Below, in pieces: positions 33,298-38,947 of a DNA stretch of 64,000 bases. Source of the stretch: Vicinamibacterales bacterium (GTDB taxonomy: Bacteria; Acidobacteriota; Vicinamibacteria; Vicinamibacterales; SCN-69-37); assembly GCA_036675475.1 (NCBI GenBank), contig JAKFEY010000020.1, forward strand, positions 6,274-70,273. Direction: 5' to 3'. The notes under the pieces were generated by a model. That model saw nothing but the letters and a program-made list of their open reading frames with translations, had not been told where the DNA came from and made no database searches. Position 1 is the stretch's first letter. Each line of letters opens with the position of its first letter. Position numbers and translations under genes: made by a program.

Positions 33298-33371
33298 CAG
33301 CCTGGCGGCAGGCGTAGTCTCTGCGCACACTCCCCACGGACACCTTTAACCCTTCGCAAAGGGAGGTCTTC

Positions 33372-34448
33372 GTGCGCCTCGATTCCGCCCGGGATCTGAA
33401 GCGGGAGCTGCTCGATCGCATCGTCAATCCCATTGCCATGCGCACGGCTGAAGTGCGGACGGCCGGCGCGCGCGCGCTCCGCTCCGCCGCGCCGCCGCTC
33501 GACGGCGAGGACGCGTCGTTCGAGGGCATGGGGGCGCACACGCTGGCGACCATTCCCGACATTCAACGCACGCTCGCGCTGGGTGTGGCGCCGTTCCGCC
33601 GCGAGTATCGCCTTGCCATTCGGCTGCAGAGGCCCGCCCTGCGCGACAGCGCGCTCGTCACGCACCTGATGCAGCAGGCGCGCGGCGAAGTCGACGTGCG
33701 GCTCGTCGGCCGCATCGACAAACGTGCCGCGGCCGCTTCGCCGCCGTGGTACCGGCGGAACACGCGGCCGCTGCTGATTGGCGCATCGGTCGGGCACGGC
33801 ATGGTGACGGCCGGCACGATCGGCGCGTTCGTGCGGCGCGACGGCGCGACGTGCGTGCTGTCGAACAATCACGTGCTCGCGAATGAGGATCGCGCCTCGG
33901 CCGGCGACGCCATCCTGCAGCGCGCCAGGTTCGATGGCGGCAGGATGAGAACCGACGCAATCGCGCGGCTCGGCGCCACCGTGCGGCTCAAGCGCCGCGC
34001 CGCCAACGAGGTGGACGCCGCGCTGGCGGTGCTGAAAGACGGCGCGCGGTATGACGCGCGGCGGCTTCGCGCCATCGTGGGCGGACACGATCGCCGCCTG
34101 AACGGCCTCGGGCCCGAGTTCATCGACGAGGGATCGATCGTCTACAAGATCGGCCGCACGACGGGCGCCACGAAAGGGCGCGTCACGGCGTTCGATCTCG
34201 ACAACGTGGTGGTCAACTACGAGATCGGCAACCTGCGGTTCGACGGGCAGATCGAGATCGAAGGCATCGGCGCGCAGCCGTTCAGCGACGGCGGCGACAG
34301 CGGCGCGCTCATCGTCAACAGCCGGATGCAGGCGGTGGCGCTCCTGTTTGCGGGCAGCGATACGGGCGGGCGGCGCGGCGGCGGGCTGACGTTTGCCAAC
34401 CCGATCCACCGCGTGCTGGCCGATCTCGGGGCGGCGCTCTTGTCGTAG
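33372..34448 (+). CDS. NAL1-like trypsin-fold (S1) serine protease, no signal peptide
   Basis: GTIGAFV, LSNNHVLA (His), VDAALA (Asp), KIGRTTG.T.G and FSDGGDSGALIV (Ser); RBS GGAGG. Confidence 0.85.
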   Translation: MRLDSARDLKRELLDRIVNPIAMRTAEVRTAGARALRSAAPPLDGEDASFEGMGAHTLATIPDIQRTLALGVAPFRREYRLAIRLQRPALRDSALVTHLMQQARGEVDVRLVGRIDKRAAAASPPWYRRNTRPLLIGASVGHGMVTAGTIGAFVRRDGATCVLSNNHVLANEDRASAGDAILQRARFDGGRMRTDAIARLGATVRLKRRAANEVDAALAVLKDGARYDARRLRAIVGGHDRRLNGLGPEFIDEGSIVYKIGRTTGATKGRVTAFDLDNVVVNYEIGNLRFDGQIEIEGIGAQPFSDGGDSGALIVNSRMQAVALLFAGSDTGGRRGGGLTFANPIHRVLADLGAALLS

Positions 34449-34477
34449 ATCGCGATCGAGGCGATCATGAGGCCGTC

Positions 34478-34699
34478 ATGCCTCAGGTGTCACTCGCGCG
34501 GGCGCAGGCGGCCAAGAAAGCGGCCGTGAAGCGCTTCGGCGGCCTCGCGCCGGTCACCGGTGTCGGGATCACACGCGTCGACGGCGCGTATGCCGTGAAG
34601 GTGAATCTGAGCGAGCCGGTCGAGCGCGGCACCCTGCCGTCGAGCATCGACGGCGTGCGGCTGTGCGTTGAAGTGATCGGCCGCATCCGCAAACGGTAG
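34478..34699 (+). CDS. Small protein resembling the N-terminal domain of the upstream protease
   Basis: VTGVGI...YAVKVNL...LPSSIDGV...VEVIGRIRKR; RBS GAGG. Confidence 0.78.
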   Translation: MPQVSLARAQAAKKAAVKRFGGLAPVTGVGITRVDGAYAVKVNLSEPVERGTLPSSIDGVRLCVEVIGRIRKR

Positions 34700-34702
34700 C
34701 GG

Positions 34703-34726
34703 GTAGCGCAGGCCTTTCGGCCTGCG
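34703..34726 (+). repeat. GTAG-type REP-like palindrome
   Basis: GTAG-CGCAGGCC-TTTC-GGCCTGCG, perfect 8-bp stem. Confidence 0.72.
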
Positions 34727-34735
34727 GGAGGCTGC

Positions 34736-35680
34736 ATGACACGACCATCAAACCGCAAGTCCGCAGTCGCCGGCGAACAGCTCGCGCGCAAGGTGGCGCG
34801 CGTGCGCAAGGCCGCGCTGCGCCGCCGCGCTGAGGCCATCACCGCCGCTCCGCGCCGCGCGCGCGCGCGCGACGCAGTGATCGATCCGCGCTTCATCCGC
34901 GCCGCCGGCACCAAAGGCGTCGCGACGCTCGTGGCCGAAGGCGACTCCTGGTTCGACTATCTCTGGTACGACGTGCTCGACATGCTCGAGAGCGAGCATG
35001 GCTACGACGTGGAGTCCGTGGCGGGCAAAGGCGATCGCATCGAGGACATGGCCTATGGCGGCGGCCAGCTGGCGAACTTCAGGAAGGTGCTCGAGAAGCT
35101 GCTGCGGCGCGAAGAGCTGCCGAAGGCGGTGCTGCTGTCGGGCGGCGGCAACGACATCGCGGGCACGGAGTTCGCGATGCTGCTCGACCATGCCGCCTCG
35201 GCCGCGCCGGGGTTCAACGACGACGTCATCCGCGGCGTGATCGACGTGCGCATCCGCAACGCGTATGTCGCGATCCTCGCGGCCGTGACGGAGCTGTGCC
35301 AATCGACAACTGGGCACACCATTCCGATTCTCGTGCACGGTTACGACCGGCCGGTGCCCGACGGGCGCGGGTTCGCGGGCGGATGGCCGTTCCCCGGTCC
35401 GTGGCTGCGTCCCGGCTTTCACGAGAAGGGCTACATGACGCTCGGCCGCAACACGCAGATGATCGGATCGCTGATCGACCGCTTCAACACAATGCTGAGG
35501 CGCGTCGCCGCCGACGCGCGCTTTCCGCACGTGCGCTACGTGGATCTTCGCGGCACGCTGTCGCGCGGCGAGGCCTACGCCGACTGGTGGGGCAACGAGC
35601 TGCATCCAACCGCCCGCGGATTTCGCGCGGTTGCGAAGAAATTCGCGGATGAGTTGGCGCGGAACGCCCGGCGCGGTTGA
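34736..35680 (+). CDS. SGNH/GDSL hydrolase with Arg-rich N-terminal extension
   Basis: AEGDSWF (block I), SGGGND (block III), HGYD and NELHP (block V); no signal peptide. Confidence 0.85.
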   Translation: MTRPSNRKSAVAGEQLARKVARVRKAALRRRAEAITAAPRRARARDAVIDPRFIRAAGTKGVATLVAEGDSWFDYLWYDVLDMLESEHGYDVESVAGKGDRIEDMAYGGGQLANFRKVLEKLLRREELPKAVLLSGGGNDIAGTEFAMLLDHAASAAPGFNDDVIRGVIDVRIRNAYVAILAAVTELCQSTTGHTIPILVHGYDRPVPDGRGFAGGWPFPGPWLRPGFHEKGYMTLGRNTQMIGSLIDRFNTMLRRVAADARFPHVRYVDLRGTLSRGEAYADWWGNELHPTARGFRAVAKKFADELARNARRG

Positions 35681-35698: not shown

Positions 35699-37912
35699 AT
35701 GAACGCGCTCATTCGCCCTGACACGCTGTATGCGTGGTGCGGGCCGTCGCTGCTGATTGTGACGGCGCGGGGCGAGTGCAGCCATGGCTTCACCGGGTTC
35801 TATCATCGCGAAGCGCGGCACCTGCGCACGTGGCGGCTCGAGATTGACGGCGAGCCGCCGTGGCTGTGTGAAGCCGCGGCGGTGTCACCCGACACGCTCG
35901 ACTTCGCGTACACGTATCCCGAGATTGCGGAATACGGCGGCGGCGGCACCGGTCAGTCGGGCGACACCGAGCCCGAGAACGCGCGCGGCGTGCCGCAGCG
36001 CGCGCTGGATCTGCGCGTGCGCTACCGCGTCGAGCCGCTCGGACTCGCGATCACCGCAACCGTCGCCAATCGCAGCCGCCGGTCCCTGCAGTTCGAGATC
36101 GGCTGGGTGTTCGACGCGGACTTCGCCGACATCCAGGAAGCGCAGGGCGGCGCGCGCCGCCAGCACGCCGACACGCGCATCGACACGTCGCCCGACCGCG
36201 TCACCCTTTCGTATCTTCACGATCAGCTGCCGTATCGAACGGCGATTAGCTGCTCCGGCGGATGGCAGACGACTGACGATCGCGTCACGTCGCGCCTCGA
36301 TCTCGCGCCGGGCGCATCGCTCGACATTGCTCTCACCGTCATCCCCGCCCCGGCCGATCGCGCGCCGCTCACGCGCGCCGACAGCGATGCCCGCGCCGCG
36401 CACGTGCGCGCGTGGCTCGACAGCTTCACGCATATCACCGCGCCCGGCAATCGCCTGTTCGAGCGCGTGCTCGCCGGCAACGTGGGCGACGTCGCGTCGT
36501 TTCCGGCGCTCGACGGCGAGCGCGACGAGTGGCTCGCGCTGCAGGCCGGCATGCCGCTGTATCCCGCACTGTTCGGCCGCGACGCCATTACCGCCGGCTG
36601 GCAGGCCGCCTGCCTCGACCAGGGCGCCTCGCTCGACGCCGCCCTCACGCGCCTCGGCCGCCTGCAGACCACGCGCGACAGCGACTGGCGCGACGAGGAG
36701 CCCGGGCGCATTCCCTATCAGGTGCGCAGCGGCCCGCTCGCGCTGCTCGAGCTCAATCCCTACGCCGCCTACTACGCCGACTTCGCCAGCCCGCTGATGT
36801 TCGTCATCGCGCTCGCGAATCTCCACGCCTGGACCGGCGACACCGCATGCCTCGACCGTCACTGGGACACGGCGCGCCGCATTCTCGACTGGGCCGCGGA
36901 GCGCGGCGACGCCGACGGCGACGGCTATCTCGAATACCGCACGCGGTCGCGCGAAGGCACGAAGAACCAGGGATGGAAGGACAGCGGCGACGCCGTCGTG
37001 TATGACGATGGGTCGCCGGTGCCGGCACCGATTGCCACGTGCGAGCTGCAGGGCTATTGGTACGCGGCGCAGCAACTGTTCGGCGGACTGAACTGGGCGC
37101 GCGGCGCGCACGGCGACGCGCGCGCGTGGATGGCGTCGGCCGCCGATCTGAAGGCGCGATTCAATCGCGACTGGTGGGTCGAGTCCGAATCGTTCTTCGC
37201 GCTGGCGATGGATCCTGACAAGCGGCTGGTCGCCGCGCCGGGCTCGAACGTCGGGCACTGCCTCGCGGCCGGCATCATCGACGCCGATCATCTCGAGCGC
37301 GTCGTCGGCCGGCTCTTCGCGCCCGACCTGTTCAGCGGGTGGGGCGTCAGGACGCTGTCCGCCGATCATCCGTACTACAACCCGGTCAGCTATCACCGCG
37401 GCACGGTGTGGGCGGTGGAGCAGGCCACCATCCTGTTCGGGCTGCGGCGCTTCGGCTTCGACGCGCGCGTGCACGATCTCGCCGGCGCGATGTTCGAGCT
37501 GGCGCAGCTCTATCCCGAGTACCGCATTCCCGAGTGCGTCGGCGGCTATCCGCGCGCGGAGCATCCGACGCCGGGCGCGTACCCGCAGGCCAACACGCCG
37601 CAGCTGTGGAACGCGTCGGCGTTTCCGCTGATGGTGCAGACCCTGCTGGGCCTGCTGCCGCTCGCCCCCTACGGGCTGCTCGTGCTGGATCCGTCGCTGC
37701 CGGAATGGCTGCCCGAGATCGTGGTGCGGGATCTGCGCGTGGGCGCCGCGCGCGTGTCCCTGCGCTGCTGGCGCGACGCGGCCGGCCAGTCGCACTTCGA
37801 GGTGTTGCAGAAGCACGGCACCCTGCGGGTCGTCCGCCAGCCGCCGCCGGAGTCGCTGTTTGCGGGCGCGGGCGCGCGTCTCGGCGGCCTCGTCGAAACC
37901 GTGCTTGGGTAA
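35699..37912 (+). CDS. Amylo-alpha-1,6-glucosidase / glycogen debranching enzyme-like
   Basis: LFGRDA, EEPGRIP, DADGDGYLEY, NQGWKDSGD, ELQGY, SGWGVRTLS, YHRGTVW and PQLW. Confidence 0.9.
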   Translation: MNALIRPDTLYAWCGPSLLIVTARGECSHGFTGFYHREARHLRTWRLEIDGEPPWLCEAAAVSPDTLDFAYTYPEIAEYGGGGTGQSGDTEPENARGVPQRALDLRVRYRVEPLGLAITATVANRSRRSLQFEIGWVFDADFADIQEAQGGARRQHADTRIDTSPDRVTLSYLHDQLPYRTAISCSGGWQTTDDRVTSRLDLAPGASLDIALTVIPAPADRAPLTRADSDARAAHVRAWLDSFTHITAPGNRLFERVLAGNVGDVASFPALDGERDEWLALQAGMPLYPALFGRDAITAGWQAACLDQGASLDAALTRLGRLQTTRDSDWRDEEPGRIPYQVRSGPLALLELNPYAAYYADFASPLMFVIALANLHAWTGDTACLDRHWDTARRILDWAAERGDADGDGYLEYRTRSREGTKNQGWKDSGDAVVYDDGSPVPAPIATCELQGYWYAAQQLFGGLNWARGAHGDARAWMASAADLKARFNRDWWVESESFFALAMDPDKRLVAAPGSNVGHCLAAGIIDADHLERVVGRLFAPDLFSGWGVRTLSADHPYYNPVSYHRGTVWAVEQATILFGLRRFGFDARVHDLAGAMFELAQLYPEYRIPECVGGYPRAEHPTPGAYPQANTPQLWNASAFPLMVQTLLGLLPLAPYGLLVLDPSLPEWLPEIVVRDLRVGAARVSLRCWRDAAGQSHFEVLQKHGTLRVVRQPPPESLFAGAGARLGGLVETVLG

Positions 37913-37930
37913 TCGTCAAGGAGGAGAGTC

Positions 37931-38947
37931 ATGAGATTTCCCCTGAAGCCGCTGCGCGATCAGGTGATGGTGATCACCGGCGCGTCGAGCGGCATCGGCC
38001 TGGTCACGGCGAAAATGGCCGCGCGCCGCGGCGCGCGCGTGGTGCTGGCGGCCCGCAACGCACAGGCGCTGCGGCACGCGACGGGCGAGATTCGCGAGGC
38101 CGGCGGGCGCGCGGAACATGTCGCCGCCGACGTGGCCGATCCGCGCGAGATCGAGCGCATCGCCGAGGCGGCCGTTCAGGCCTTCGGCCGCATCGACACG
38201 TGGGTGAACAACGCCGCCGTGTCGATGTACGGCCGCATCATGGATCTGCCGGTCGAAGACATGCGGCGGCAGATGGACGTCAACTACTGGGGCCAGGTCT
38301 ACGGCTCGCGCGAAGCCGTGCGCCGCATGCAGCGTGACGGCGGCGCGCTCATCAACGTGGGCAGCGCGCTGTGTGACCGCGCCATCCCGCTGCAGGGCAA
38401 CTACTGCGCCGCCAAGCACGCGCTGAAAGCGTTCACCGACGCGCTGCGCATGGAGCTCGAAGACGCGCAGGTGCCCGTCTCGGTCACGCTGGTCAAGCCG
38501 GCCAGCGTCGACACGCCGTTCTTCGAGAAAGCCCGCACCTACCTCGGCGTCGAGCCGCAGCCGGTGCCTCCCGTCTACGCGCCCGAAGTGGTCGCCAACG
38601 TCATTCTGCACGCCGCGCAGCGTCCGCTCCGCGAGCTGATCGCCGGCGGCTCCGGCGCGAAACTCAGCGCCGCCCGCTTTGCGCCGCGCGCCGCCGATCT
38701 CTACATGGAGCGCTGGACGTTCGACTCGCAGGGCACCGACATGCCGGCCAACGGCCGTCCCGACAACCTCTACGAACCCGTCGTCGACGATGGGGGAGAG
38801 CGCGGACGGAACTGGAACGGGCATACGCGCGAGAGCAGCGCGTATACGAGCGCGTTCCTGCATCCACGCGCGTCGATGACACTTGTCGCCGGCCTCGCGC
38901 TTGCCGCCGGCCTGGGGAGGCGCTATGCGCAGCACCGCGAGTTATAA
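37931..38947 (+). CDS. SDR family oxidoreductase
   Basis: TGASSGIG, WVNNA, NVGS and YCAAKHA (YxxxK). Confidence 0.93.
   Translation: MRFPLKPLRDQVMVITGASSGIGLVTAKMAARRGARVVLAARNAQALRHATGEIREAGGRAEHVAADVADPREIERIAEAAVQAFGRIDTWVNNAAVSMYGRIMDLPVEDMRRQMDVNYWGQVYGSREAVRRMQRDGGALINVGSALCDRAIPLQGNYCAAKHALKAFTDALRMELEDAQVPVSVTLVKPASVDTPFFEKARTYLGVEPQPVPPVYAPEVVANVILHAAQRPLRELIAGGSGAKLSAARFAPRAADLYMERWTFDSQGTDMPANGRPDNLYEPVVDDGGERGRNWNGHTRESSAYTSAFLHPRASMTLVAGLALAAGLGRRYAQHREL

What the first reader, a model, noticed from the sequence alone, without database searches (positions are those of the whole stretch)
33372..35680. Candidate undescribed module: NAL1-like cytoplasmic protease, free prodomain-like protein and SGNH hydrolase
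Seen: three tightly spaced co-oriented genes, each with its own RBS and none with a signal peptide. The protease has an intact His/Asp/Ser triad (SNNH, VDAA, GDSG). The SGNH hydrolase (GDSW, GGND, NELHP) carries an extension of about 60 residues rich in Arg/Lys/Ala before its catalytic domain. Established: intracellular proteases that release an effector by cutting an inhibitory segment are a recurring design in bacterial conflict systems, for example gasdermin-protease operons. Inference: the protease could activate the esterase/lipase by removing the basic extension, gated by the small protein. I do not recognise this triad as a named system.
Basis: partly seen in the sequence, partly recalled or inferred. 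Interest (0 to 1): 0.75.

Follow-up and report, generated by a model that had tools for sequence, protein, structure and literature searches.

The report
Protease, free pro-domain copy, SGNH hydrolase
A soil bacterium encodes a cytoplasmic NAL1-like protease, a small stand-alone copy of that protease's own N-terminal domain, and an esterase-type hydrolase whose relatives in other genomes sit next to many unrelated proteases, which suggests an undescribed protease-controlled enzyme module.

Summary
The triad is not one fixed system. It is the overlap of two separate conserved patterns.

(A) The NAL1-like S1 protease is followed by the ~75-aa protein in all 80 fetched loci across more than 10 phyla. 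The pair also occurs on a Rubrobacter plasmid and once as a natural fusion. The small protein is a distant paralog of the protease's own N-terminal pro/ABD-like domain, with a weak fold match to the alpha-lytic protease Pro region.

(B) The SGNH hydrolase follows this pair only in one clade (7 of 17 rows). Its basic N-terminal extension is kept in genomes that lack the protease. However, of 54 well-flanked SGNH orthologue loci, 35 lie beside a protease without a signal peptide. At least seven unrelated kinds occur: NAL1-like, S8, trypsin-type, papain C1, M43, M36-like and metzincin-CHAT. Three kinds come with a small cognate inhibitor-like protein. Random anchors give 9%.

No link to known defence systems or defence islands was found.

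Best reading (0.45): the protease is held in check by its small partner and processes the SGNH proenzyme. The cleavage, the substrate and the biological role are all untested.

The parts
33360..33366 (+). Ribosome-binding site AGGGAGG of the protease gene
   Evidence: Read directly from the sequence. It lies 5 nt upstream of the GTG start.
33372..34448 (+). NAL1-like cytoplasmic S1 serine protease, 358 aa. Catalytic codons: His167 at 33870-33872, Asp215 at 34014-34016, Ser310 at 34299-34301.
   Evidence: ORF. The triad is invariant in 63 homologues. Pfam Nal1_C and Trypsin_2 both score below their cut-offs. A profile search hits rice NAL1 in PDB at E 4e-8. The AF2 model has pLDDT 90.8; its best fold match is NAL1 (E 2e-14), followed by the alpha-lytic/SGPB family.
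33372..33737 (+). N-terminal region of the protease (about residues 1-122): a long helix, then a beta-hairpin, a helix and a strand, ending in VGRIDKR. This is the pro-like / NAL1 ABD-like domain.
   Evidence: AF2 secondary structure. The invariant residues are K10, G71, A82, R84, Q86 and G113. It aligns to the small protein. The NAL1 domain plan is taken from PMC12012508.
34478..34699 (+). 73-aa stand-alone paralog of the protease N-terminal domain, ending in IGRIRKR. Proposed to be the cognate regulator or inhibitor.
   Evidence: It lies directly downstream of the protease in all 80 loci. The same pairing is found on a Rubrobacter plasmid. One natural fusion exists, P0304. The family has 1831 cluster representatives, nearly all 72-110 aa with the domain at the C-terminal end. 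The AF2 model has pLDDT 89.4. Fold search gives the alpha-lytic Pro region at E 0.03, probability 0.89. No Pfam or NCBIfam family matches.
34707..34726 (+). GC-rich stem-loop (CGCAGGCC-UUUC-GGCCUGCG) in the spacer between the small gene and the SGNH gene. It abuts the SGNH RBS.
   Evidence: Folding gives -24.5 kcal/mol, z = -2.83. Stem-loops with different sequences occupy the same spacer in many other triad loci. No control was run.
34736..35680 (+). SGNH/GDSL hydrolase, 314 aa. Nucleophile Ser71 at 34946-34948; His290 at 35603-35605.
   Evidence: Pfam PF13472 scores 39.5 bits against a cut-off of 32.9. Conserved blocks are shown. No relative by sequence is in PDB. Orthologues lie next to proteases of at least 7 kinds.
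34736..34933 (+). Conserved basic N-terminal extension of the SGNH hydrolase (about 66 residues). Its core motif is G-x3-A-x2-V-L-x-x-R-x3-L-R-R-R, followed in close relatives by P-R-F-I-R-A-A-G.
   Evidence: G13, A17, L28, R31, A56 and G58 are invariant in 30 homologues. The extension is present whether or not a NAL1-like protease is linked. It is unrelated to the small protein.
35699..38947 (+). Context only: a GDE-like glycoside hydrolase (35699-37912) and an SDR (37931-38947). They are co-oriented and probably co-transcribed here, but are not part of the module.
   Evidence: Pfam assignments. A congeneric genome (G306) keeps GDE plus SDR without the three genes. None of the other triad loci has them.

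Best explanation
The three genes form a protease-controlled hydrolase module assembled from two separable units.

Unit A is a cytoplasmic NAL1-like S1 protease plus a free ~75-aa paralog of its own N-terminal pro/ABD-like domain. The small protein binds the protease as its cognate regulator. It most likely acts as an inhibitor, in the way pro-regions and dedicated inhibitors hold their proteases latent.

Unit B is an SGNH hydrolase made with a conserved basic N-terminal extension. In this lineage it is the client of Unit A. When the small protein's hold is released, the protease processes the hydrolase, probably within or at the end of the extension, and so switches on or relocates its esterase/lipase activity.

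What is shown: gene structure, catalytic residues, folds, paralogy, strict protease-small linkage, and the enrichment of unrelated proteases beside SGNH orthologues.

What is inferred: binding, inhibition, cleavage, the trigger, the substrate of the hydrolase, and the biological role.
For: Pair:
- The small gene follows the protease in all 80 loci from Acidobacteriota, Planctomycetota, Verrucomicrobiota, Pseudomonadota, Chloroflexota, Actinomycetota and other phyla, with unrelated flanks.
- The pair persists at 34% protease identity on a Rubrobacter plasmid.
- One natural protease-linker-small fusion exists.
- Paralogy is supported by hhalign P 4e-4 against controls of 0.23 and 0.39, and by a shared V-x-x-x-G-R-I-x-K-R end. 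The small protein stops where the N-domain stops. The secondary-structure order is the same.
- The small protein's best fold hits are the alpha-lytic protease Pro region, which is a known trans-acting foldase and tight inhibitor (established knowledge).

SGNH coupling:
- Of 54 orthologue loci (at least 47% identity, at least 1.2 kb visible on both sides), 35 have a protease within 2.5 kb, mostly on the same strand and closer than 650 bp. The counts are NAL1-like 11, metzincin-CHAT 7, S8 6 plus one more locus with S8 and trypsin together, C1 4, M36-like 3, trypsin-type 2 more, M43 1.
- Random anchors in 810 kb of control DNA give 9.2%. Leaving out the NAL1-linked loci, 24 of 43 have a protease, binomial p 2e-14.
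- None of these proteases has a signal-peptide-like N-terminus.
- Three kinds bring a small partner: a free paralog of the S8 N-terminal domain, the C1 inhibitor family I42, and the protein in this window.

Triad as a unit:
- Its flanks differ among triad loci.
- Three congeners lack both the protease and the SGNH.
- Contigs from libraries labelled metatranscriptomic span all three gene junctions.

Precedents for protease-activated proenzymes: trypsin-MBL (10.1101/2025.09.03.673762). From abstracts only: nuclease-protease pairs, bacterial gasdermins, and the GDSL enzyme PlaA of Legionella.
Against: - No cleavage, binding or activity was tested, and no complex could be modelled.
- The pair occurs without the SGNH in about 90% of its loci, so it must have another or a broader function.
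- The extension is conserved in SGNH orthologues that have no nearby protease (19 of 54), and across partners with very different specificities. That fits a role other than a cleavable inhibitor equally well.
- Linkage was gained or lost at least twice in both trees.
- The enrichment test has three weaknesses. Its query proteases were taken from SGNH loci. The loci are not phylogenetically independent (about 8 independent arrangements). The control DNA comes from other taxa.
- The similarity of the small protein to the Pro region is weak (TM 0.43-0.45; no sequence match).
- Pfam does not recognise I9 in the S8-linked small protein.
- There are no PADLOC hits and no defence-gene enrichment among 94 flanking genes.
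- The RNA evidence is low-depth contigs from libraries of uncertain purity.
Confidence: 0.45

Rival explanations
1. The protease and small protein form a self-contained two-subunit cytoplasmic protease: a NAL1-like cage in which the free N-domain copy is an assembly or regulatory subunit. It has its own, unknown substrates. The SGNH gene is only an operon neighbour in one clade, and the window has no three-part mechanism.
For: - About 90% of pair loci lack the SGNH.
- In the class survey the protease and the SGNH are adjacent in 3 of 301 genomes.
- Linkage is labile in both trees.
- In rice NAL1 the ABD contacts the protease domain of a neighbouring subunit to build trimers (PMC12012508), so a free copy could be structural.
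Against: - The SGNH is the only recurrent third gene. It stays attached while the flanks change.
- The SGNH family's association with unrelated proteases is hard to explain by chance.
- The three genes are present or absent as a block within the genus.
Confidence: 0.25
2. The protease and the SGNH hydrolase act side by side on one substrate class in the cytoplasm. An example would be de-esterification plus peptide-bond cleavage of acylated or acetylated peptides, lipopeptides or cell-wall fragments. There is no zymogen step, and the basic extension serves in localisation or substrate binding.
For: - Adjacency to proteases of many catalytic types fits a need for any peptidase.
- The extension is conserved regardless of partner.
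- The local context in the window is carbohydrate and redox metabolism: GH9, GDE-like hydrolase, SDR.
Against: - Catabolic partners would not be expected to carry dedicated inhibitors or free pro-domain copies (I42, S8 small protein, this small protein). They would also not be expected to include CHAT-type proteases, which are typical of regulated cleavage.
- No transporter or regulator is conserved with them.
Confidence: 0.2
3. The pair is a toxin-antitoxin-like addiction or abortive module. The protease is toxic and the small protein is its labile antidote. The SGNH hydrolase is an optional second effector.
For: - Distribution is patchy (13 of 301 genomes; absent from congeners).
- The protease tree mixes phyla.
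- The pair is a compact two-gene cassette in unrelated contexts.
- It is present on a plasmid.
- A phage protease family, phrog_20754, matches the catalytic domain at E 2e-33.
Against: - No PADLOC match, and no enrichment of defence or mobile-element genes among the flanks.
- The putative antidote lies downstream of the toxin, which is the less common order.
- No toxicity data exist.
Confidence: 0.1

Closest known systems
Rice NARROW LEAF 1 (NAL1) serine protease (PDB 7Y77, 8HAS/8HAU, 8PMG and others)
   Same: It is the best structural match over the whole chain (E 2e-14) and the best profile match in PDB (E 4e-8). Both are cytoplasmic, have no signal peptide, and carry a small beta-rich domain (the ABD in NAL1) ahead of an S1 protease domain.
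   Different: Identity is only about 17% and TM about 0.55. The window protein scores below the Pfam Nal1_C cut-off. The ATP-binding residues and the hexameric cage were not tested. NAL1 has no separately encoded copy of its N-terminal domain.
Alpha-lytic protease / Streptomyces griseus protease family (S1E) with its Pro region
   Same: The catalytic domain superposes with TM 0.78-0.82 on the target. The small protein's best fold hits are Pro-region chains 2PRO, 3PRO and 4PRO, with 26-31% identity over about 63 columns. The Pro region is known to work in trans and to inhibit the mature enzyme (established knowledge).
   Different: Those enzymes are secreted, and their Pro region is fused and cleaved off. 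Here everything is cytoplasmic: one copy stays fused and a second copy is a separate gene. The fold match is weak (E 0.03) and there is no sequence match.
Protease-activated effector proenzymes of bacterial immunity: gasdermin-protease operons and trypsin-MBL / nuclease-protease pairs
   Same: In both, a conserved effector sits next to a protease. As in what is reported for gasdermins, the protease partner here comes from several unrelated families. Proteolytic release of an autoinhibited hydrolase is shown for trypsin-MBL (10.1101/2025.09.03.673762).
   Different: The effector here is an SGNH hydrolase, and its candidate inhibitory segment is an N-terminal basic helix region. The proteases lack sensor domains, and several have a small inhibitor-like partner instead. 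No defence-island context or PADLOC match was found. No phenotype is known.
Legionella GDSL lysophospholipase PlaA, activated by the metalloprotease ProA
   Same: It is a GDSL/SGNH-family hydrolase whose activity depends on proteolytic processing (abstract of 10.1101/2023.03.24.534060).
   Different: PlaA is secreted and is cut in an internal disulfide loop. It is not encoded next to its protease. No sequence relationship was tested.
Chagasin-type inhibitor (I42) with papain-like C1 peptidase; subtilisin propeptide (I9) with S8
   Same: These are small cognate inhibitor proteins encoded beside their protease. Both arrangements occur beside orthologues of this SGNH hydrolase, in parallel with the small protein here.
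   Different: They belong to different folds and protease clans. The I9 assignment of the S8-linked small protein is visual only and was not confirmed by Pfam.

Membership tests
S1 (clan PA) serine peptidase, NAL1-like (Pfam PF25819 Nal1_C) | Catalytic His, Asp and Ser in that order within a double beta-barrel | tested here: met
   H167, D215 and S310 are invariant in 63 sequences. The AF2 model gives an all-beta catalytic domain. Its fold matches NAL1 and alpha-lytic protease.
S1 (clan PA) serine peptidase, NAL1-like (Pfam PF25819 Nal1_C) | Score above the Pfam gathering threshold for Nal1_C | tested here: not met
   The window protein scores 19.3 bits against a cut-off of 26.1. Many close homologues do carry a precomputed PF25819 hit. 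A profile of the family finds NAL1 in PDB at E 4e-8.
S1 (clan PA) serine peptidase, NAL1-like (Pfam PF25819 Nal1_C) | ATP-binding ABD and a two-trimer cage | not testable with these tools
   No multimer modelling was available and the model coordinates could not be read. The NAL1 residues R120, R122, K123 and K139 were not mapped.
Alpha-lytic protease Pro region (small protein) | Same fold as the Pro region | tested here: inconclusive
   Foldseek gives E 0.03-0.15, probability 0.69-0.89, TMq 0.40-0.49. Ribosomal protein S3 chains score similarly. A sequence profile search of PDB finds nothing relevant.
Alpha-lytic protease Pro region (small protein) | Binds and inhibits, or folds, its cognate protease | not testable with these tools
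   This needs biochemistry or complex modelling.
SGNH/GDSL hydrolase | Pfam score above threshold, with block I GDS, block III GxND and block V DxxH | tested here: met
   PF13472 scores 39.5 against 32.9, and PF00657 scores 32.8 against 23.6. GDSW, GGGND and N/D-E-L-H-P are conserved. The -3 position of block V is mostly Asn, and Asp in some members.
Known anti-phage defence systems (PADLOC-DB 2.0) | A match of any component to a defence-system model | tested here: not met
   There are no hits for the three proteins or for the GDE-like gene. Of 94 genes flanking the pair elsewhere, only about 8 give generic hits.
Protease-activated effector proenzyme modules (gasdermin-protease, trypsin-MBL type) | Effector family adjacent to proteases, with partner replacement across families | tested here: met
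   35 of 54 loci have a protease nearby, of at least 7 kinds, against 9.2% for random anchors.
Protease-activated effector proenzyme modules (gasdermin-protease, trypsin-MBL type) | Effector is autoinhibited and is released by cleavage; there is a defence or cell-death phenotype | not testable with these tools
   No experiment was possible.

The most novel reading that the evidence does not exclude
A previously unrecognised, polyphyletic class of cytoplasmic modules made of a latent protease, its cognate small inhibitor and an SGNH pro-effector. In it, an SGNH esterase/lipase with a conserved basic N-terminal pro-segment is the executioner. It is unleashed by whichever protease the module carries (NAL1-like, S8, C1, trypsin, metzincin-CHAT and others) once the inhibitor is removed. 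This would be a lipid- or envelope-directed counterpart of the gasdermin-protease and trypsin-nuclease systems, used for abortive infection or programmed cell death.
Probability: 0.25. Interest if true: 0.85.

Novelty: new variant of a known kind. Interest (0 to 1): 0.68.

Why it matters
Two large families with no named function become testable:

- **The small protein family.** A ~75-aa protein family (at least 1,800 clusters at 50% identity) is always paired with a bacterial NAL1-like protease. It gives a natural trans-acting pro-domain or regulator for a protease type so far known only from a crop-yield gene.
- **The SGNH subfamily.** This subfamily's recurrent pairing with unrelated intracellular proteases, several of them with inhibitors, points to proteolytic control of an esterase/lipase.

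If cleavage-dependent activation is confirmed, SGNH hydrolases would join pore-formers and nucleases among the effectors that bacteria keep as proenzymes. The result would also show the same three-part logic assembled independently at least three times: a protease with a cis pro-domain, a free copy or inhibitor, and a client.

Tried and rejected
- **Fixed three-gene system: rejected.** The SGNH is absent from about 90% of pair loci. The protease and the SGNH are distributed independently in the class.
- **Conserved third gene upstream or downstream of the pair: none.** The neighbours are ThrRS, Lhr helicase, patatin-Omp85, an ABC transporter, ComEC, xanthine dehydrogenase, PQQ dehydrogenase, GT4, M20, Fpg, glycerol kinase and others.
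- **Defence island: not supported**.
- **Extension as a Tat or Sec signal: rejected.** It has no hydrophobic core.
- **Extension related to the small protein or the N-domain: rejected.** hhalign P is 0.1-0.66.
- **Small protein as a RiPP precursor: unlikely.** It is a well-folded conserved domain (pLDDT 89). Only a distant Rhizobium plasmid relative of the protease sits by radical-SAM and HEXXH genes, and that locus has no small gene.
- **Pfam I9 for the S8-linked small protein: not detected**.
- **GDE-like and SDR genes as part of the module: rejected**.
- **Phage or plasmid origin.** Only distant catalytic-domain relatives are found on plasmids, and one archaeal virus hit.
- **Literature.** Searches for bacterial NAL1 homologues or SGNH-protease systems found nothing specific.
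- **HisZ/HisG or GGDEF neighbours of the most distant SGNH relatives (40-46% identity).** I treated these as a different orthologue group.
Full report
**1. Observation**

The window is high-GC DNA (about 0.69) from a member of the Acidobacteriota class Vicinamibacteria. This follows from the source names of close homologues.

At 33372-35680 there are three co-oriented ORFs of 358, 73 and 314 aa, separated by 29 and 36 nt. Each has a purine-rich RBS and high third-position GC. None has a hydrophobic N-terminus.

The first ORF has His167, Asp215 and Ser310, all invariant in 63 homologues. The third has the SGNH blocks and passes the Pfam GDSL thresholds. Its first ~66 residues are Arg/Lys/Ala-rich.

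**2. The protease**

- Pfam gives only sub-threshold Nal1_C and Trypsin_2 hits.
- A profile of 63 homologues finds rice NAL1 as the best PDB sequence (E 4e-8), followed by the alpha-lytic/SGPE group.
- The AF2 model (pLDDT 90.8) matches NAL1 chains over its whole length (E about 1e-14). Its catalytic domain matches alpha-lytic protease, SGPB and TFPA with TM about 0.8 on the target.
- NAL1 has an N-terminal domain, a small beta-rich ATP-binding domain that contacts the neighbouring protease domain, and the S1 domain. It forms a two-trimer cage (PMC12012508).
- The bacterial protein has a long N-terminal helix, then a hairpin-helix-strand unit, then the S1 domain.

"NAL1-like cytoplasmic protease" is therefore a fair description. 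Formal Pfam membership of this particular sequence is not met.

**3. The small protein and the pair**

No Pfam, NCBIfam, PADLOC or PHROG family matches the small protein.

Linkage to the protease:
- In 80 loci fetched from species-representative genomes by protease similarity, a homologue lies immediately downstream on the same strand in every one. tblastn finds it in 79 and clustering in the 80th.
- The loci span Acidobacteriota, Planctomycetota, Verrucomicrobiota, Pseudomonadota, Chloroflexota, Actinomycetota, Gemmatimonadota, Myxococcota, Hydrogenedentota and others. The protease tree mixes these phyla.
- The neighbours on either side are unrelated housekeeping genes.
- A Rubrobacter plasmid carries a 34%-identical protease followed by a 77-aa protein that matches the small-protein profile (probability 96%).
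- An exhaustive profile search finds 1831 cluster representatives. Nearly all are 72-110 aa, with the domain ending at the protein's C-terminus. One 432-aa protein is a protease-linker-small fusion.

Paralogy with the protease N-terminal domain:
- Profile-profile comparison of the small family with the protease N-terminal region gives P 4e-4 over 77 columns. The catalytic domain gives 0.39 and the reversed N-region gives 0.23 (a smaller test is).
- The aligned elements are an N-terminal helix (L-x-x-A-R-x-x-K, with the invariant Lys of each family aligned), the hairpin, and the last strand with a shared G-R-I-x-K-R end. The small protein terminates exactly where the N-domain ends.
- Both AF2 models show helix, hairpin, strand.
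- This agrees with another first-stage note on this genome (e1-5253471).

The small protein's best PDB fold hits are the Pro region of alpha-lytic protease and NAL1 N-terminal segments. These are weak (E 0.03-0.2, TM about 0.45) and have no sequence support.

From established knowledge, the alpha-lytic Pro region acts in trans as a foldase and is a tight inhibitor. I therefore read the small protein as the protease's cognate regulator, most likely an inhibitor. This is inference.

**4. Is the SGNH gene part of it?**

Against:
- It follows the pair in only L002, L003, L004, L007 and L010, plus L081 and L116 found from the SGNH side. Ten more cases occur among 80 metagenomic SGNH loci.
- All linked proteases fall in one well-supported clade of 17 rows, 7 linked and 10 not.
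- In the SGNH tree the linked genes are also interspersed with unlinked ones.
- In 301 genomes of the class, the SGNH family is in 32, the protease in 13, and they are adjacent in 3.
- The basic extension has invariant positions (G13, A17, L28, R31, A56, G58). It is present in orthologues from genomes without the protease.

For:
- It is the only recurrent third gene, always on the same strand after a short spacer, while the flanks differ.
- Three congeneric genomes lack both the protease and the SGNH. One of them keeps the downstream GDE-SDR pair. The three genes therefore come and go as a block, separate from what follows them in the window.
- Short, mismatch-free contigs from libraries labelled metatranscriptomic bridge the protease/small, small/SGNH and SGNH/GDE junctions. 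This is weak evidence of co-transcription.

**5. The turn**

The SGNH orthologues that are not linked to the NAL1-like pair turned out to lie beside other proteases:

| Arrangement | Loci |
|---|---|
| S8 subtilase (about 400 aa), then a 111-115-aa protein, then SGNH | L093, L101, L102, L103 |
| S8 plus PF00089-type trypsin(s) | L083, L100, L127 |
| Trypsin_2 | L092, L108 |
| M43 | L090 |
| M36-like (weak Pfam hit) | L089, L164, L169 |
| Papain-like C1 peptidase with chagasin-type Inhibitor_I42, divergent from SGNH-DUF4139 | L085 (same family as the window), L117, L118; C1 also in L165 |
| About 900-aa fusion of a myroilysin-like metzincin with a CHAT-type domain | 7 loci with full flanks |

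- In the first arrangement, the small protein is a paralog of the S8's own N-terminal region (P 2e-4 against 0.75 for the catalytic part).
- The metzincin part of the fusion matches PDB at E 1e-21. Its C-terminal domain shows the H-G and C-E-T-G motifs and is 31% identical to a Pfam-verified CHAT domain.
- None of these proteases shows a signal peptide.

Counting: among 54 loci with SGNH identity of at least 47% and at least 1.2 kb visible on both sides, 35 have such a protease within 2.5 kb. With the same queries and thresholds, random 900-bp anchors in 810 kb of control DNA have one in 9.2% of trials. Excluding the NAL1-linked loci, 24 of 43 have one, binomial p 2e-14.

Caveats:
- The queries came from SGNH loci.
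- The loci are not independent (about eight independent arrangements).
- Detection in the rest is by tblastn only, so the 19 loci scored as having no protease are an upper bound.

Even with these caveats, replacement of the partner by non-homologous proteases is a strong sign of functional coupling. Three of these proteases carry a small inhibitor-type partner: two free pro-domain copies and one classical inhibitor family.

**6. Mechanism**

The most economical reading is a latent cytoplasmic protease held by its small partner, with the SGNH hydrolase as client. The conserved basic extension is the candidate pro-segment or docking element.

This is the logic shown for trypsin-MBL nuclease modules. 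It is also reported for nuclease-protease pairs, bacterial gasdermins and the GDSL enzyme PlaA (abstracts).

What argues for caution:
- The pair mostly lives without the SGNH.
- The extension is the same whatever the partner.
- No known defence system or island is involved.
- Nothing biochemical is known.

My estimates are:

| Claim | Confidence |
|---|---|
| Protease and small protein are an obligate functional pair | about 0.9 |
| The SGNH family is functionally tied to proteases | about 0.7 |
| The tie is proteolytic processing, gated by the small protein | about 0.4 |
| The role is conflict or cell death | about 0.25 |

**7. Novelty**

Protease-activated proenzymes are a known kind. New here are three things: the SGNH effector family, the NAL1-like protease with a separately encoded copy of its own N-domain, and the convergent three-part layout seen with S1, S8 and C1 proteases.

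No library or paper I could search describes them.

Noticed in passing
window 34707-34726 (outer stem 34696-34700 / 34731-34735): A GC-rich stem-loop fills the spacer between the small gene and the SGNH gene, and its outer stem reaches the SGNH RBS (-24.5 kcal/mol, z -2.83). Stem-loops of unrelated sequence occupy the same spacer in many other triad loci (L121, L003, L004, L081, L128, L010). This could be an attenuator or an mRNA-processing site that sets different expression levels. No control for high-GC background was run.
   Followed up: partly
L024, L036, L038, L039, L042, L049, L059, L063, L068, L074 (flanks of the pair): In about 10 of 80 loci, all from Planctomycetota or Verrucomicrobiota, a large CHAT/TPR (in L063: CHAT-AAA_16-TPR) gene lies within one or two genes of the protease-small pair. 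This could be a real association, or it could reflect how abundant such genes are in these phyla.
   Followed up: partly
L096 (Rhizobium ruizarguesonis plasmid p4, NZ_CP071682.1 159580-163129): A distant relative of the protease (39% identity over the catalytic domain, different N-terminus) follows a radical-SAM gene and a HEXXH peptide-modification gene. This is a RiPP-like layout, and no small partner gene is present.
   Followed up: no
P0307 (194 aa): This protein consists of the protease N-terminal domain joined directly to the small-protein domain. The whole catalytic domain is missing. It may be a deletion variant or an assembly artefact.
   Followed up: no
L081 4581-5692; L116 2624-3701: In two long contigs the NAL1-like protease of a triad is split into two ORFs (96+242 aa and 281+80 aa). 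This may be sequencing indels in long-read assemblies, or genuine pseudogenes.
   Followed up: no
N-termini of SGNH orthologues and of the C1, S8 (L083), M43 and S8-linked small proteins: Many proteins of these modules begin with a short, strongly basic tail of the type M-A-x-K/R-R-R..., ahead of their conserved parts. Its meaning is unknown. It might be a shared targeting or interaction tag.
   Followed up: no
window 35699-38947 and L099 14228-17455: The GDE-like glycoside hydrolase and the SDR downstream of the triad form their own conserved pair. A congeneric genome that lacks the triad has them at 68% and 79% identity.
   Followed up: yes
window 34478-34699, residue 61: The window's small protein has Arg at a position where at least 90% of homologues have Pro (G-V-P).
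   Followed up: no
window 33372-34448: The PHROG family phrog_20754 ('protease') matches the catalytic domain at E 2e-33. An Aeropyrum spiral virus serine protease gives a partial hit. Relatives of this protease therefore exist in viruses.
   Followed up: no
L144, L168, L174 and L082, L094: Some SGNH orthologues with no protease neighbour sit next to toxin-antitoxin-type genes: a MazF/PemK-like gene recognised by eye, PIN_3, and VapB.
   Followed up: no
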